Below, one piece after another: positions 15,737-58,649 of a DNA stretch of 64,000 nucleotides. Origin of the DNA: Eledone cirrhosa. Taxonomy: Eukaryota. Each line of letters begins with the position of its first letter. Position 1 is the first letter of the stretch. The DNA lies in contig OZ024743.1 of the NCBI GenBank assembly GCA_964016885.1, forward strand, positions 330,584,001-330,648,000, read 5' to 3'. The position numbers were made by a program, and so were the translations under genes. Under the pieces are notes generated by a model. It saw nothing but the letters and a program-made list of their open reading frames with translations, did no database searches and was not told where the DNA came from.

Positions 15737-16363
15737 ATGAAAAACAAGGGGAGAAGAATACTGCATGGTTGCACATGGATTACATATTATAAAATTAGTC
15801 CCTCATCAGTGATTTGCCAACCATCATTGGTATTTCATCGCATTAAAAATCAGATACCTCAGGTTGGTGCGAGCTGGTGCGAACTAAAATAAGCTATTGG
15901 GACAAGTGAAACGCGTAAAGCGAGTGAGACAAGTAAACAACAGAAGGAAAAGCAAACCGAAGGTTGGGAAAACAGCAAGCCACATGATAGTTATCCGATC
16001 AGCATAAGCTGGGTGAATTTCATGAGCATGTCAGAGAAGCAGACCGTACGCCGCGAATGCGGTGTGAGAAAGAAGGAACCCTACTACTAGCGAACGGGAG
16101 GAAGTGAAAAGGGGAGAAACAGAGAGTGAGTGAGTGGAAGTGCGAGGAAGAGGTCAGTCGAGAGAAAGTGTTAACTGACAGAGGGGACGAAAGAAGGTAA
16201 GAGAAACAGAGATAACGGGGGAGCAGTAAGAGAGAAAGAGAGAAACAGATAATCGCAGTTTAGGTAAATATATATGAAAAACAAGGGGAGAAGAATACTG
16301 CATGGTTGCACATGGATTACATATTATAAAATTCGTCCGTTATCAGTGATTTGCCAACCATCA
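15737..16363 (-). mobile_element. About 536-bp unit plus partial direct repeat; diverged relative of the 494-bp repeat at 56325-58090
   Basis: ATGAAAAACAAGGGGAGAAGAATACTGC repeated at about 15737 and 16274; shares CTCACTCGCTTTACGCGTTTCA, GGCAAATCACTGATGAGGGACT and other blocks with the 56-kb unit. Confidence 0.8.
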
Positions 16364-16689
16364 TATATGTTATAAAATATATATATATTGTGTATAAAAC
16401 TATGGATTATATACAAGTTGCTACATAACCTGGACATTATTTATCCCAAATTGTAGAAATCTTATAACGAAACGGCCGTCTGGAAGGAAAGAGATATTTA
16501 TTTATGTCTCATATAAAATAATACAACCAGCTATCCACGAAATACTGATTAGTTAGCACCCCAAACACTAAATAGGGATATTACTTAAGTATATCCTAAT
16601 GTTTGTTGAGTGAGATGGAGTTGGTCGGAGTATCGCTTAAGGCTTTCTCTGTTAATGTATTAAATATATATATATATGAGGAGTACTGG

Positions 16690-31588: not shown

Positions 31589-32697
31589 AATATGGTCGAC
31601 TATTGAGGCACCCTCAATATGGTCGACTATCGAGGCACCCTCAATATGGTCGACTATTGAGGCACCCTCAATATGGTTGACTATTGAGGCACCCTCAATA
31701 TGGTTGACTATTGAGGCACCCTCAATATGGTCGACTATTGAGGCACCCTCAATGTGGTCGACTATTGAGGCACCCTCAATATGGTCGACTATCGAGGCAC
31801 CCTCAATATGGTCGACTATTGAGGCACCCTCAATATGGTCGACTATCGAGGCACCCTCAATATGGTCGACTATCGAGGCACCCTCAATATGGTCGACTAT
31901 TGAGGCACCCTCAATATGGTCGACTATCGAGGCACCCTCAATATGGTCGACTATTGAGGCACCCTCAATATGGTCGACTATCGAGGCACCCTCAATATGG
32001 TCGACTATCGAGGCACCCTCAATATGGTCGACTATTGAGGCACCCTCAATATGGTCGACTATCGAGGCACCCTCAATATGGTCGACTATCGAGGCACCCT
32101 CAATATGGTCGACTATTGAGGCACCCTCAATATGGTCGACTATCGAGGCACCCTCAATATGGTCGACTATCGAGGCACCCTCAATATGGTCGACTATTGA
32201 GGCACCCTCAATATGGTCGACTATCGAGGCACCCTCAATATGGTCGACTATTGAGGCACCCTCAATATGGTCGACTATCGAGGCACCCTCAATATGGTTG
32301 ACTATTGAGGCACCCTCAATATGGTCGACTATTGAGGCACCCTCAATATGGTCGACTATTGAGGCACCCTCAATATGGTCGACTTTGAGGCACCCTCAAT
32401 ATGGTCGACTATCGAGGCACCCTCAATATGGTCGACTATCGAGGCACCCTCAATATGGTCGACTATTGAGGCACCCTCAATATAGTTGACTATTGAGGCA
32501 CCCTCAATATGGTTGACTATTGAGGCCCCCTCAATATAGTTGACTATTGAGGCACCCTCAATATGGTTGACTATTGAGGCACCCTCAATATGGTTGACTA
32601 TGGAGGCACCTTCAATATTGTTGACTATCGAGGCACCCTCAATATGGTCGAATATGGAGGCACCCTCAATATTGTTGACTATCGAGGCACCCTCAAT
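31589..32697. repeat. 27-bp minisatellite, about 41 copies (AATATGGTCGACTATYGAGGCACCCTC)
   Basis: Direct reading; no spacers between units. Confidence 0.97.
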
Positions 32698-33959: not shown

Positions 33960-36900
33960 CGTTAATCAACTCAAATGTCTAACTGTAATAACACCAAGAA
34001 GGTGGACATTTTGTCACACTGGATGGCGGAAGACTAAATTGAATTGATGATTTTCTATATTTGGGCAGCTGGATGAGTTCATCATAAAAGGACATTGACA
34101 TTATAGTTTCCAAAGTCTGGGCTACAGTGAACAAAATGGTAAGGATATGGAAGTCAGATCTTCCCCAAAAAATCAAAATATTATTCTTCAGGACATCTGT
34201 TGAGTCAGTATTATTGTATGGATCAAGTACATGGAACCTGACACAGGTACTTGAGTCAGTATTATTGTATGGATCAAGTACATGGAACCTGACACAGGTA
34301 CTTGAGTCAGTATTGTTGTATGGATCAGGAACATGGACCCTGACACAGGTACTTGAGTCAGTATTGTTGTATAGATCAGGTACATGGAACCTGACACAGG
34401 TACTTGAGTCAGTATTGTTGTATGGATCAAGTACATGGAACCTGACACAGGTACTTGAGTCAGTATTATTGTATGGATCAAGTACATGGAACCTGACACA
34501 GGTACTTGAGTCAGTATTATTGTATGGATCAAGTACATGGAACCTGACACAGGTACTTGAGTCAGTATTGTTGTATGGATCAGGAACATGGACCCTGACA
34601 CAGGTACTTGAGTCAGTATTGTTGTATAGATCAGGTACATGGAACCTGACACAGGTACTTGAGTCAGTATTGTTGTATGGATCAAGTACATGGAACCTGA
34701 CACAGGTACTTGAGTCAGTATTATTGTATGGATCAAGTACATGGAACCTGACACAGGTACTTGAGTCAGTATTATTGTATGGATCAAGTACATGGAACCT
34801 GACACAGGTACTTGAGTCAGTATTGTTGTATGGATCAGGAACATGGACCCTGACACAGGTACTTGAGTCAGTATTATTGTATAGATCAGGTACATGGAAC
34901 CTGACACAGGTACTTGAGTCAGTATTGTTGTATGGATCAGGAACATGGACCCTGATACAGGTACTTGAGTCAGTATTGTTGTATAGATCAGGTACATGGA
35001 CCCTGACACAGGTACTTGAGTCAGTATTATTGTATAGATCAGGTACATGGACCCTGACACAGGTACTTGAGTCAGTATTGTTGTATGGATGAGGTACATG
35101 GACCCTGACACAGGTACTTGAGTCAGTATTGTTGTATGGATCAGGTACATGGACCCAGACGCAGGCACTTGAGTCAGTATTGTTGTATGGATCAGGTACA
35201 TAGAACCTGACACAGGTACTTGAGTCAGTATTATTGTATGGATCAGGTACATGGACCCTGACACAGTCACTTGAGTCAGTATTGTTGTATGGATCAGGTA
35301 CATGGACCCTGACACAGGCACTTGAGTCAGTATTGTTGTATGGATCAGGTACATGGAGGCTGACACAGGCACTTGAGTCAGTATTGTTGTATGGATCAGG
35401 TACATGGACCCTGACACAGGCACTTGAGTCAGTATTGTTGTATGGATCAGGTACATGGAGGCTGACACAGGCACTTGAGTCAGTATTGTTGTATGGATCA
35501 GGTACATGAATCCTGACACAGGCACTTGAGTCAGTATTGTTGTATGGATCAGGTACATGGACCCTGACACAGGCACTTGAGTCAGTATTGTTGTATGGAT
35601 CAGGTACATGGACCCTGACACAGGCACTTGAGTCTGTATTGTTGTATGGATCAGGTACATTGACCCTGACACAGGCACTTGAGTCAGTATTGTTGTATGG
35701 ATCAGGTACATGGAACCTGACACAGTCACTTGAGTCAGTATTGTTGTATGGATCAAGTACATGGACCCTGACACAGCCACTTGAGTCAGTATTGTTGTAT
35801 GGATCAGGTACATGGAGGCTGACTCAGGCACTTGAGTCAGTAGTATTGTATGGATCAAGTACATGGACCCTGACACAGGTACTTGAGTCAGTATTGTTGT
35901 ATGGATCAGGTACATCGACCCTGACACAGGTACTTGAGTCAGTATTATTGTATGGATCAGGTACATGGACCCTGACTCAGGCACTTGAGTCAGTAGTATT
36001 GTATGGATCAAGTACATGGACCCTGACACAGGTACTTGAGTCAGTATTGTTGTATGGATCAGGTACATCGACCCTGACACAGGTACTTGAGTCAGTATTA
36101 TTGTATGGATCAGGTACATGGAGGCTGACACAGGCACTTGAGTCAGTATTGTTGTATGGATCAGGTACATGGACCCTGACACAGGCACTTGAGTCAGTAT
36201 TGTTGTATGGATCAGGTACATGGAGGCTGACACAGGCACTTGAGTCAGTATTGTTGTATGGATCAGGTACATGAATCCTGACACAGGCACTTGAGTCAGT
36301 ATTGTTGTATGGATCAGGTACATGGACCCTGACACAGGCACTTGAGTCAGTATTGTTGTATGGATCAGGTACATGGACCCTGACACAGGCACTTGAGTCT
36401 GTATTGTTGTATGGATCAGGTACATGGACCCTGACACAGGCACTTGAGTCAGTATTGTTGTATGGATCAGGTACATGGAACCTGACACAGTCACTTGAGT
36501 CAGTATTGTTGTATGGATCAGGTACATGGACCCTGACTCAGGCACTTGAGTCAGTAGTATTGTATGGATCAAGTACATGGACCCTGACACAGGTACTTGA
36601 GTCAGTATTGTTGTATGGATCAGGTACATCGACCCTGACACAGGTACTTGAGTCAGTATTATTGTATGGATCAGGTACATGGAGGCTGACACAGGCACTT
36701 GAGTCAGTATTGTTGTATGGATCAGGTACATGGACCCTGACACAGGTACTTGAGTCAGTATTGTTGTATGGATCAGGTACATCGACCCTGACACAGGTAC
36801 TTGAGTCAGTATTATTGTATGGATCAGGTACATGGAGGCTGACACAGGCACTTGAGTCAGTATTGTTGTATGGATCAGGTACATGGACCCTGACACAGGT

Positions 36901-38320
36901 ACTTGAGTCAGTATTGTTGTATGGATCAGGTACATCGACCCTGACACAGGTACTTGAGTCAGTATTGTTGTATGGATCAGGTACATCGACCCTGACACAG
37001 GTACTTGAGTCAGTATTATTGTATGGATCAGGTACATGGAACCTGATACAGGTACTTGAGTCAGTATTATTGTATGGATCAGGTACATGGACCCTGACAC
37101 AGGTACTTGAGTCAGTATTGTTGTATGGATCAGGTACATGGAGGCTGACACAGGCACTTGAGTCAGTATTGTATGGATCAGGTACATGGAACCTGACACA
37201 GGCACTTGAGTCAGTATTGTTGTATGGATCAGGTACATGGACCCTGACACAGGCACTTGAGTCAGTATTGTTGTATGGATCAGGTACATGGACCCTGACA
37301 CAGGTACTTGAGTTAGTATTGTTGTGTGGATCAGGTACATCGACCCTGACACAGGTACTTGAGTCAGTATTGTTGTATGGATCAGGTACATGGACCCTGA
37401 CACAGGCACTTGAGTCAGTATTGTTGTATGGATCAGGTACATGGAACCTGACACAGGCACTTGAGTCAGTATTGTTGTATGGATCAGGTACATGAACCCT
37501 GACAAAGACACTTGAGTCAGTAGTGTTGTATGGATCAGGTACATGAACCCTGACACAGGCACTTGAGTCAGTATTGTTGTATGGATCAGGTACATGGACC
37601 CTGACACAGGCACTTGAGTCAGTATTGTTGTATGGATCAGGTACATGAACCCTGACAAAGACACTTGAGTCAGTAGTGTTGTATGGATCAGGTATATGGA
37701 CCCTGACACAGGTACTTGAGTCAGTATTGTTGTATGGATCAGGTACATGGACCCTGACACAGGCACTTGAGTCAGTATTGTTGTATGGATCAGGTACATG
37801 GACCCTGACACAGGCACTTGAGTCAGTATTGTTGTATGGATCAGGTACATGAACCCTGACAAAGACACTTGAGTCAGTATTGTTGTATGGATCAGGTACA
37901 TGGACCCTGACACAGGCACTTGAGAAGAAACTAGATGGTGACACACTAAAATGCTAAGGTTGTACAAAACATAACCTGGCGTCAACTGATTACAAATGAA
38001 ACTTCATACAGAGACTTGCCCAAGATAACAACTACAATTGCTCAAAGACAGTTATGATTATCAGGACATTGCTGGAGAAGTAAGCAGGAAGTTATACACA
38101 AGCTACTGTTGTGGGAACCAACTCAGGAAGTTATATACAAGCTACTATTGAGGGAACCAACTCACAGGAGAAGCAGTAGAGGAAGACCTGCTCAAACCTT
38201 CATCGATCAACTCTCAGACGACACAGGCATCAGTATGGAGCAGTTTCCAGGAGCAATGGAAAATCGGGAATCATGGAGAGATTTTGTCAGGAATGTTCGA
38301 CTGTGGACACAATGATGATG
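33960..38320 (+). mobile_element. RTE-clade LINE 3' fragment containing an internal 51-bp tandem expansion
   Basis: DDFLYLGSW, IWKSDLPQKIKILFFRTSVESVLLYGS before the array; LEKKLDG, GHCWR, LLLWEPT, GRPAQTFIDQL..ENRESWR and (TGA)n tail after it. Confidence 0.9.
34200..37925. repeat. 51-bp minisatellite, about 73 copies, derived from RTE coding sequence
   Basis: Unit TTGAGTCAGTATTGTTGTATGGATCAGGTACATGGACCCTGACACAGGYAC = ESVLLYGSGTWTLTQ(V/A)L. Confidence 0.97.
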
Positions 38321-56117: not shown

Positions 56118-56258
56118 GGTAAAAATACACCACACAGAAATAATTTAAAGATTATTTTTTCTTTAATCCAACAGAATAAATAATATTATAATTGTTTCAT
56201 TAAATGTAATCGGTGTTGATTGACTTAACAATCTTATCAAATATTAGATATTAAATGT

Positions 56259-56302
<44 letters not shown>

Positions 56303-56324
56303 ACATTTAATATCTAATATTTGA

Positions 56325-58086
56325 TAAACGCGCTCATATATTCACCTAGCTTATGCTAAACAGAATAATTTTTGAAGCTTGTTTCTTTCCCCTACGGTTA
56401 GCTATACTCTTTGTTGTTCTCCTGTCTCACTCGCTTTACACGTTTCAATTGTCCTAATAACTTATTTTGGTTATTATTGCACCGACGTGAGGTATATGAT
56501 TTTTAATGCAATGAAATATCTATGATCGTCGGCAAATCACTGATGAGGGACTCATTTTATTACATGTTATCCATGTGCTACCTGCAGTATTTTTCTCTAT
56601 ATTTTATTACATATATTTACCACTGCGATTCTGTGTTTTTTTCTCTCTCTCTCTTACTGTTCCCCCATTCTCGCTGCTTCTCCCCCTCTGTCATGTCAGT
56701 TAACTCTTTCTCACACTTTCACTCACTCACTGTTTCTCTTCTCTTCATTTCATCCTGTACACCACGAAGGCTATTTTTCTCTCTTCTCACATAGCCTTCG
56801 CTCGTGTCGGGTCTGTTCTAAACGCGCTCATATATTCACCTAGCTTATGCTAAACAGAATAATTTTTGAAGCTTGTTTCTTTCCCCTACGGTTAGCTATA
56901 CTCTTTGTTGTTCTTCTGTCTCACTCGCTTTACGCGTTTCAATTGTCCTAATAACTTATTTTGGTTATTATTGCACCGACGTGAGGTATATGATTTTTAA
57001 TGCAATGAAATATCTATGATCGTCGGCAAATCACTGATGAGGGACTCATTTTATTACATGTTATCCATGTGCTACCTGCAGTATTTTTCTCTATATTTTA
57101 TTACATATATTTACCACTGCGATTCTGTGTTTTTTTCTCTCTCTCTCTTACTGTTCCCCCATTCTCGCTGCTTCTCCCCCTCTGTCATGTCAGTTAACTC
57201 TTTCTCACACTTTCACTCACTCACTGTTTCTCTTCTCTTCATTTCATCCTGTACACCACGAAGGCTATTTTTCTCTCTTCTCACATAGCCTTCGCTCGTG
57301 TCGGGTCTGTTCTAAACGCGCTCATATATTCACCTAGCTTATGCTAAACAGAATAATTTTTGAAGCTTGTTTCTTTCCCCTACGGTTAGCTATACTCTTT
57401 GTTGTTCTCCTGTCTCACTCGCTTTACGCGTTTCAATTGTCCTAATAACTTATTTTGGTTATTATTGCACCGACGTGAGGTATATGATTTTTAATGCAAT
57501 GAAATATCTATGATCGTCGGCAAATCACTGATGAGGGACTCATTTTATTACATGTTATCCATGTGCTACCTGCAGTATTTTTCTCTATAATTTATTACAT
57601 ATATTTACCACTGCGATTCTGTGTTTTTTTCTCTCTCTCTCTTACTGTTCCCCCATTCTCGCTGCTTCTCCCCCTCTGTCATGTCAGTTAACTCTTTCTC
57701 ACACTTTCACTCACTCACTGTTTCTCTTCTCTTCATTTCATCCTGTACACCACGAAGGCTATTTTTCTCTCTTCTCACATAGCCTTCGCTCGTGTCGGGT
57801 CTGTTCTAAACGCGCTCATATATTCACCTAGCTTATGCTAAACAGAATAATTTTTGAAGCTTGTTTCTTTCCCCTACGGTTAGCTATACTCTTTGTTGTT
57901 CTCCTGTCTCACTCGCTTTACGCGTTTCAATTGTCCTAATAACTTATTTTGGTTATTATTGCACCGACGTGAGGTATATGATTTTTAATGCAATGAAATA
58001 TCTATGATCGTCGGCAAATCACTGATGAGGGACTCATTTTATTACATGTTATCCATGTGCTACCTGCAGTATTTTTCTCTATATTT

Positions 58087-58090
<4 letters not shown>
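56325..58090 (+). repeat. 494-bp tandem repeat, about 3.6 near-identical copies, ending at (TA)n
   Basis: Identical ORFs at 56522 and 57016; CCGACGTGAGG at 56482, 56976, 57470 and 57964. Confidence 0.97.
56482..56532 (+). ncRNA. Kink-turn stem-loop (one per 494-bp unit; homologue on minus strand at 15817-15867)
   Basis: CCGACG-T-GA-GGTAT..ATATC-TAT-GA-T-CGTCGG versus CCAACC-T-GA-GGTAT..ATACC-AAT-GA-T-GGTTGG; two compensatory pairs. Confidence 0.65.
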
Positions 58091-58136
<46 letters not shown>

Positions 58137-58141
<5 letters not shown>

Positions 58142-58312
58142 AACCAGTAAGACCCCGACAGCTGAGCTCAAGCCGTTTCCAGAATTAGCCGTCGAAACAG
58201 CTTGAGCTCAGCTGTCGGGGTCTTACTGGTTCCTATTACCCACTCTACTACCTCAATTATTGAGTACTTTGGTGCGTTATGGTCCACCTGGTTCCTTACC
58301 ACTTTTCCTTCG

Positions 58313-58389: not shown

Positions 58390-58649
58390 AGAATGAATGA
58401 AAAACATGTTTTTAATATTTAAGATTTAATATCTAACATTTGATAACATTTTTACACCAATTGACACCGATTACATTTAATGAAACAACTAGAAAATTAT
58501 TCTTATTGTAGGATTAAAGAAAAAATAATCTTTAAATTATTTCTGTGCATTTTTTCATATATACGGTATATATATAGAGAGAGACTTAATCTATCACCGG
58601 GTGTAAGACCAATATGCGACACTTGAGGGCCTTTGCTTTGTTATTCGGG

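What the first reader, a model, noticed from the sequence alone, without database searches (positions are those of the whole stretch)
56325..58090. 494-bp head-to-tail multimer that looks like a retrozyme or pLTR-type element
Seen: 3.6 almost identical units start mid-unit and end at (TA)n. The diverged relative at 15737-16363 is also more than one unit long and ends at the equivalent position at (TA)n. There is no credible coding frame. Each unit has the K-turn, a 10-bp hairpin (CGAAGGCTAT/ATAGCCTTCG), CTGATGAGG 8 nt after the K-turn, and GAAACGCGTA on the opposite strand (GAAACGTGTA in unit 1). Established: non-LTR retrozymes and PLE pLTRs form such multimers. Inference: a fixed 3' end with variable 5' end fits reverse transcription of a circular or multimeric RNA primed in (TA)n. 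I could not assemble a complete hammerhead, because the two half-motifs lie on opposite strands.
Basis: partly seen in the sequence, partly recalled or inferred. Interest (0 to 1): 0.7.

Follow-up and report, generated by a model that had tools for sequence, protein, structure and literature searches.

The report
Mobile repeat with scrambled hammerhead ribozyme
This is a very young four-unit insertion of an abundant non-coding mobile repeat in an animal genome; each unit carries all the parts of a hammerhead ribozyme in a scrambled order, braced by a kink-turn, so it is predicted to cut its own RNA and likely spreads by borrowing the enzyme of a Penelope-type jumping gene.

Summary
The 494-bp multimer is real (3.6 units, 1-2 substitutions apart). 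It belongs to a dispersed superfamily: 11,720 exact matches to one core pattern, control 0. Copies have fixed 3' ends in (TA)n, scattered 5' ends and some inverted 5' arms, the Penelope-like (PLE) footprint. Stems I and III, the kink-turn stem and two extra helices covary. Stem II is one base pair opening into a four-way junction, unlike published SGC ribozymes. The same fold ends published octopus Naiad consensus sequences. New here: I found Naiad RT only as decayed remnants, so a different, intact PLE is the likelier helper. No copy of 100 starts at the predicted cut, and long arrays show 2- and 4-unit periods, so plain monomer rolling-circle copying is not shown. Cleavage and expression are untested. 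This scan reported the same RNA motif before on other DNA (11 notes, at least 3 genomes); those notes gave me the SGC lead.

The parts
56325..58091 (+). Whole insertion, 3.6 head-to-tail units of a 494-bp non-coding element (my label: family A); + strand is the inferred RNA sense
   Evidence: 39% GC
56451..56551 (+). Rearranged (S-G-C order) hammerhead-like motif, copy 1; copies 2-4 at +494, +988, +1482
56451..56481 (+). 5' arm of the junction replacing stem II: helix Y 5' strand (56451-54, pairs 56548-51), hairpin P0 (56455-76), helix X 5' strand (56477-81, pairs 56507-11)
   Evidence: Y 93%, P0 91-94%, X 87% of cells paired; folds Y and P0 unaided
56482..56532 (+). Box C/D-type kink-turn: NC stem 56482-87/56527-32, U-GA 56488-90, bulge-GA-U 56521-26; its C stem is hammerhead stem III (56491-94/56517-20)
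   Evidence: NC 6 of 6 and stem III 4 of 5 pairs with two-sided changes
56495..56496 (+). U16.1-H17; predicted cut after 56496 (also after 56990, 57484, 57978), which would release 494-nt monomers
   Evidence: U in 87 of 87, A or C in 87 of 87 copies that keep the upstream GA in register; cleavage itself untested
56497..56539 (+). Stem I as a pseudoknot: 56497-56502 pairs with 56534-39
   Evidence: 6 of 6 pairs with two-sided changes; at least 5 of 6 pairs in 87 of 87
56512..56516 (+). N11.1 and GAAA (block G)
56540..56547 (+). CUGAUGA and N10.1 (block C); 10.1-11.1 is the only stem II pair
   Evidence: contiguous 5-bp stem II reaches at most 3 pairs; 10.1-11.1 pairs in 81 of 87
56765..56800 (+). 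10-bp hairpin with pyrimidine loop (also 57259, 57753); sequence not kept in family B; role unknown
58043..58091 (+). Tail between the proximal end point (about 58043-45, used by inverted arms of family A) and the distal end point (58091); holds a short motif shared by the subfamilies
58090..58139 (.). (TA)n target at the 3' end
56233..56327 (.). Left flank: inverted repeat around (TA)n from another small element; 3-nt overlap (56325-27) with the array start
15737..16371 (-). Family B relative (about 533-bp unit), with an intact motif at 15798-15903 and a 5'-truncated second copy whose CUGAUGA is mutated

Best explanation
The array is a recent insertion of a non-coding, Penelope-type mobile repeat whose + strand carries a complete hammerhead core in S-G-C order held by a kink-turn; the RNA is predicted to cut itself once per unit and is likely copied into (TA)n by the reverse transcriptase-endonuclease of another Penelope-like element. 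Steps: (1) read-through transcription of an array (inferred). (2) Folding: stem III and the kink-turn stem nest, stem I and helix X cross them, and stem II is one pair opening into a four-way junction (shown by covariation, not by structure); the kink would bring the far ends of stems I and II together in place of the usual loop-loop contact (inferred). (3) Cut after 56496 and each +494 gives 494-nt monomers, some of which would be ligated to circles as in type I retrozymes (inferred by analogy, PMC7229834). (4) A PLE enzyme nicks (TA)n and primes at one of two TA-like spots 45-50 and 95-105 nt after the GAAA (end points shown; enzyme inferred). (5) Copying runs through the cut site into further units and stops at random (shown), sometimes with a second inverted arm (shown). 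(6) The ribozyme tail descends from the same ancestor as the 3' end of Naiad elements (shared fold shown by eye), but Naiad here looks dead, so the current helper is likely one of the young C-terminal-endonuclease PLE families (inferred).
For: Ends: 16 of 16 distinct family A insertions among the 30 loci fetched end at unit position 273-294 before (TA)n, with 5' starts scattered. In the first 100 of 11,720 pattern matches, 73 end in (TA)5 or longer within 130 nt, 24 run into a next unit, 3 other. Inverted arms in L378, L383, L384 all end at the proximal point. These are the PLE features named in PMC8557442 (passages). Structure: 37 gap-free core sequences, 89.6% cells paired, 17 of 18 pairs with two-sided changes, covariation 0.542 against 0.230 shuffled and at most 0.151 slid; 35-pair model on 29 sequences, 92% paired, 18 pairs with two-sided changes. 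Core positions not imposed by the search hold: U16.1 87 of 87, H17 A/C 87 of 87; CUGAYGA in 19 of 20 loci fetched by a pattern that lacked it (read by eye). Ribozyme columns vary less than the rest of the unit, 13 of 101 against 99 of 393, P = 0.008, 28 loci. The 3' ends of Naiad_Ovul and of the record before it (Naiad_Obim by file order) form all the same helices, with a near-identical P0 loop, read by eye. Naiad RT: 0 exact matches for three motif patterns; 19 matches with two mismatches, of which the 16 I fetched are stop-riddled fragments mostly 64-83% alike around the motif. Young intact PLE frames are plentiful.
Against: No cleavage or RNA data. 0 of 100 sampled copies start at the predicted cut; 1 of 16 long-array loci plus window does (L379), at a TA microhomology. 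Stem II of one pair, unpaired (A-C, A-A, A-G) in 6 of 87 copies and in 10 of 37 diverse representatives, and lacking the usual G-C pair, could cripple catalysis. Long arrays have 2- and 4-unit periods and two loci have units further apart from each other than from another locus (L387, L388), which means uncut multimer templates, template switching or later duplication. Covariation counts are sequences, not events, and GAAA, the second GA and CUGAYGA were imposed by the patterns used for those alignments. No autonomous element with this 3' end or tail motif was found among the 70 PLE-centred loci examined.
Confidence: 0.72

Rival explanations
1. The fold is a hammerhead-derived but catalytically silent or very slow recognition structure: a kink-turn RNP handle by which a PLE enzyme binds the RNA. 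Multimers then come from uncut read-through transcripts and template jumps.
For: No pile-up of 5' ends at the cut; heterogeneous and periodic arrays; one-pair stem II; Naiads were reported to prosper without canonical hammerheads (PMC8557442).
Against: U16.1 and H17 (never G) are kept in 87 of 87 copies and position 7 alternates U/C as in active hammerheads; published SGC ribozymes cleave (PMC10085705 passages).
Confidence: 0.17
2. As the best explanation, but the helper is an intact Naiad that my motif searches missed or that was lost or is unassembled.
For: The fold is that of Naiad 3' ends; Naiads target (TA)n; pattern searches cover only a few motifs.
Against: Three exact patterns gave 0 and the relaxed one gave only decayed copies; none of the 49 short-linker matches resembles the Naiad_Ovul end; the paper itself says cephalopod Naiads are remnants. 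This rival overlaps the best explanation in all but step 6.
Confidence: 0.25
3. A satellite or DNA-mobilised repeat (rolling-circle DNA, unequal exchange) with no RNA stage; the structure is a relic.
For: Higher-order periods in long arrays look like DNA-level duplication.
Against: Thousands of dispersed short copies with strand-polar fixed ends, random 5' truncation and inverted arms; strand-specific G-U pairs and G-A kink-turn kept across subfamilies.
Confidence: 0.04

Closest known systems
Type-SGC hammerhead ribozymes (HRIMA-1 and variants; Eckert et al. 2023, PMC10085705; sections 13 and 15 and passages read, supplements not seen)
   Same: Block order S-G-C, all core nucleotides, stems I and III as crossing helices, short linker between stem I and stem II strands (4 nt here, typically 3 there).
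   Different: Stem II strands do not pair with each other beyond one pair but each pairs with an upstream strand (helices X and Y, closed by hairpin P0); a kink-turn joins stem III to an extra stem ('kink' occurs 0 times in that paper); it lies in an animal genome repeat, whereas the paper reports none of its motifs from genomes of known organisms except one GCS candidate.
Metazoan non-LTR retrozymes (Cervera and de la Pena 2020, PMC7229834, passages; Li et al. 2026 preprint 10.64898/2026.07.22.740005, parts 1-2 of 5 read)
   Same: Short, low-GC, non-coding head-to-tail units, one ribozyme motif per unit, dispersed monomers to multimers, proposed PLE origin.
   Different: They are defined by a type I hammerhead; none is present here on either strand. 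Unit 494 bp is just above the 150-450 bp given in the 2020 paper but within 51-972 bp of the preprint.
Naiad PLEs and non-autonomous Chlamys elements such as MRC1 (Craig et al. 2021, PMC8557442; passages, section 7, supplement table rows and part 24 of 59 read)
   Same: (TA)n targets, 5' truncation, partial tandems, inverted 5' copies, a tail present at one end, multicopy head-to-tail non-autonomous forms; octopus Naiad 3' ends have the same RNA fold and were flagged only as 'HHR_half_core'.
   Different: No ORF; tail about 45-50 nt rather than 30-40; tail sequence differs from Naiad_Ovul; the matching autonomous Naiad looks extinct in this genome.

Membership tests
Non-LTR retrozyme | Short low-GC non-coding tandem units, dispersed | tested here: met
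Non-LTR retrozyme | Type I hammerhead in each unit | tested here: not met
   descriptor finds 6 type I-like motifs elsewhere in the window and many in other loci, none in this superfamily on either strand; Rfam no hit, but Rfam also missed the other motifs
Non-LTR retrozyme | Expressed as unit-length linear and circular RNA | not testable with these tools
   no RNA holder listed
Type-SGC hammerhead | Block order S-G-C with all conserved core nucleotides | tested here: met
Type-SGC hammerhead | Stems I and III supported by covariation | tested here: met
   6 of 6 and 4 of 5 pairs
Type-SGC hammerhead | Continuous stem II between the strand after CUGAnGA and the strand before GAAA | tested here: not met
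   at most 3 of 5 pairs, 2 in 74 of 87; replaced by helices X and Y
Type-SGC hammerhead | Site-specific self-cleavage | not testable with these tools
   indirect test (5' ends at the cut) negative, 0 of 100, but a circular template predicts no stop there
Non-autonomous Penelope-like element | 5' truncation with fixed 3' end, partial tandems | tested here: met
Non-autonomous Penelope-like element | Inverted 5' copy lacking the 3' tail | tested here: met
   L378, L383, L384; L033, L044; L109, L119, L124, L129; not present in the window copy itself
Non-autonomous Penelope-like element | Microsatellite (TA)n target | tested here: met
   73 of 76 terminal ends
Non-autonomous Penelope-like element | Target-site duplication | tested here: inconclusive
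   masked by (TA)n
Non-autonomous Penelope-like element | 3' end shared with an autonomous partner | tested here: inconclusive
   fold shared with published Naiad consensus ends (by eye); no intact partner found in this genome
Kink-turn (box C/D type; definition recalled) | 3-nt bulge, tandem G-A/A-G, U-U, flanked by C and NC stems | tested here: met
Kink-turn (box C/D type; definition recalled) | Binds an L7Ae-family protein and kinks | not testable with these tools
   none

The most novel reading that the evidence does not exclude
An active, protein-assisted hammerhead of a new architecture (non-circular order, stem II opened into a four-way junction, closed by a 15.5K/L7Ae-type kink-turn) that is the missing Naiad ribozyme, and that has outlived its Naiad parent in this genome by switching to another Penelope clade's enzyme, spreading as a family of RNA circles in over ten thousand copies.
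Probability: 0.4. Interest if true: 0.85.

Novelty: new variant of a known kind. Interest (0 to 1): 0.7.

Why it matters
If it cleaves, it breaks the assumption in Eckert et al. that the CUGAnGA and GAAA blocks carry a shared stem II, gives the first natural kink-turn-braced and possibly host-protein-tuned hammerhead that my searches could find, and explains why Naiads were scored as lacking hammerheads. It also means retrozyme censuses based on type I descriptors miss a whole class. The 494-nt unit with four predicted cut sites is a ready-made test substrate, and the dead-Naiad, live-parasite pattern makes helper switching among Penelope clades testable.

Tried and rejected
Type I hammerhead on either strand: none. 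Types II and III and a long-range stem II with the in-loop GAAA: no pairing by eye; contiguous stem II fails. Opposite-strand GAAAC: not conserved. Rfam: nothing at gathering level, only a weak snoRNA score of 21-23 bits against a cut-off of 50; one search was swamped by microsatellite noise. tRNA-derived SINE: no tRNA gene in the window. Family C copy next to a Neptune-like ORF (L087, L089) first looked like a PLE 3' UTR but is an independent insertion with its own multimers. The 784-aa PLE family and the Neptune-like families lack the motif and the tail. Twenty loci with rare, old motif variants had no Naiad-type RT motif upstream. Short-linker pattern: 49 matches, none like the Naiad_Ovul end; control 8. 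RNA editing signature: A>G only 3 of 72 array-shared changes. Expression: no RNA holder listed; four contig sets of unknown type laid, uninformative. Rows dropped: for alignments A1 and A2 I kept 29 and 37 of 45 representatives, leaving out truncated or out-of-register ones; one search counts use 87 of 100 copies that keep the upstream GA in register; L392 gave no family A match. Searches by sequence and nearby in the scan's notes returned nothing.

Full report
Observation. The array runs from 56325 to 58091: three 494-bp units and 285 bp of a fourth, differing by three substitutions in all, then (TA)n. The relative at 15737-16371 is on the minus strand, 76-79% alike, and ends at the same point. 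No credible coding frame was seen.

A dispersed superfamily. The window lies in a 3.0-Gb animal genome; earlier scan notes call it a cephalopod, which I did not test. The unit gave 2,424 first-look candidates, of which 39 were scored; the relative is its own family with 3,223 candidates; a third family gave 2,781; more subfamilies came from pattern searches. One exact core pattern has 11,720 matches, reversed control 0. Family letters are my labels.

Insertion footprint. All 16 distinct family A insertions among the 30 loci fetched end at unit position 273-294 before (TA)n and start at scattered points. In the first 100 matches, a sample not chosen for 5' length, 73 end in (TA)n within 130 nt, 24 run into another unit and 3 do neither. 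Ends cluster at two points per subfamily, about 45-50 and 95-105 nt after the GAAA in families A-C, where the unit itself has TA-like bases. Inverted 5' arms end at the nearer point, although many copies without a visible inverted arm also end there (only 6 of 31 had one). 5' truncation, partial tandems, inverted copies, a one-sided tail and (TA)n bias are the PLE traits described in PMC8557442.

The ribozyme. A type I descriptor found many hammerheads in other repeats, six in this window, and none in this superfamily. At that stage I read it as a half-core. Three earlier scan notes pointed to type-SGC hammerheads (PMC10085705), and I then tested that order. On the + strand the cut block comes first (GGUA-UA, 56491-96), then GAAA (56513), then CUGAUGA (56540). 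Stem III is the C stem of the kink-turn; stem I crosses it. On 37 gap-free representatives 89.6% of cells pair and 17 of 18 pairs show two-sided changes, against shuffled and slid controls far lower. Adding helices X, Y and hairpin P0 gives 92% paired on 29 sequences; support for X, Y and P0 is thinner (2 of 5, 1 of 4 and 3 of 8 pairs with two-sided changes). Positions that the search did not impose are kept: U16.1 in 87 of 87 and A or C at 17 in 87 of 87. A continuous stem II does not form; only the 10.1-11.1 pair does (81 of 87), switching among U-G, U-A and A-U. So it works like an SGC hammerhead but fails one defining feature. Counts are of related sequences, not independent events.

Link to Naiad. 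In the Craig 2021 supplement, Naiad_Ovul and the record before it end with the same set of helices and a near-identical P0 loop, with a 1-nt linker (read by eye); Naiad_Ovul was flagged 'HHR_half_core'. In this genome, exact patterns for three Naiad RT motifs found nothing. A two-mismatch pattern found 19 places (control 3); the 16 fetched are decayed fragments with many stops and no motif retained nearby. The paper also describes cephalopod Naiads as remnants. By contrast, RT plus C-terminal GIY-YIG elements are abundant and young, yet none of those examined carries this motif or the tail motif. The helper is therefore unidentified; a non-Naiad PLE is my best guess.

How multimers arise. The window's units differ by 1-2 substitutions while the nearest other locus sampled differs by 4-5, and L382's three units are identical, as expected from repeated copying of one template. 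But L379 has a 4-unit period and L386 a 2-unit period, and L387 and L388 have units more distant from each other than from another locus. No sampled copy begins at the predicted cut (0 of 100), unlike a claim in note e1-8669858 for another genome. Copying passes through the cut site, so the template was a ligated circle or an uncut transcript; these data cannot separate the two.

Literature. Type-SGC appears in one paper of the library. 'Naiad, hammerhead, permut' gave nothing on this motif (listing only); 'kink-turn, Penelope, retrotransposon' gave 0; 'k-turn, hammerhead ribozyme, L7Ae' and 'octopus, Penelope, hammerhead' listings showed no natural case (titles and abstract starts only). Supplements of Eckert 2023 and of the 2026 preprint were not seen and could hold related variants. 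The scan itself holds 11 earlier notes on this motif.

Verdict. Real; a young insertion of a non-autonomous Penelope-type, retrozyme-like element with a rearranged, split-stem-II, kink-turn hammerhead. New variant of a known kind; cleavage, expression and helper untested. Interest 0.7.

Noticed in passing
window 14765 (+), 13420 (-), 61558 (+), 61124 (-), 44645 (-), 2649 (-): Six type I hammerhead-like motifs from other repeat families in the same window; Rfam at gathering level missed them.
   Followed up: no
window 58140-58230: Near-perfect inverted repeat right after the array's (TA)n; the same sequence flanks several other loci (L131, L135, L260), so the site is a nest of TA-targeting elements.
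   Followed up: no
window 56120-56327 and 58416-58545: Two diverged, oppositely oriented copies of another small element flank the array.
   Followed up: partly
L091 8068-9553: Tandem units of about 490-510 bp each with a canonical type I hammerhead: an ordinary retrozyme multimer.
   Followed up: no
L151-L180 (query L145:4305-5216): Very abundant young PLE family, about 784-aa frame with RT and C-terminal GIY-YIG-like end, 45,147 candidates, 3.5-kb tandems, ending in (TA)n; no CUGAnGA seen by eye in the printed 3' UTRs. Candidate helper.
   Followed up: partly
L081 4809-7622 (-), L087, L093: Neptune-like PLEs (RT, Cys linker, GIY-YIG); the L093 family ends in a type I hammerhead.
   Followed up: partly
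L181-L210: A further subfamily of the motif with different stem III and stem I sequences and the same tail motif.
   Followed up: partly
L379 (G000:C4:43.23-43.24 Mb) and L386: Arrays of 14 and 8 full units with 4-unit and 2-unit higher-order periods.
   Followed up: partly
window 31589-32697 and 34200-37924: Homogeneous minisatellites of 27 bp x 41 and 51 bp x 73.
   Followed up: no
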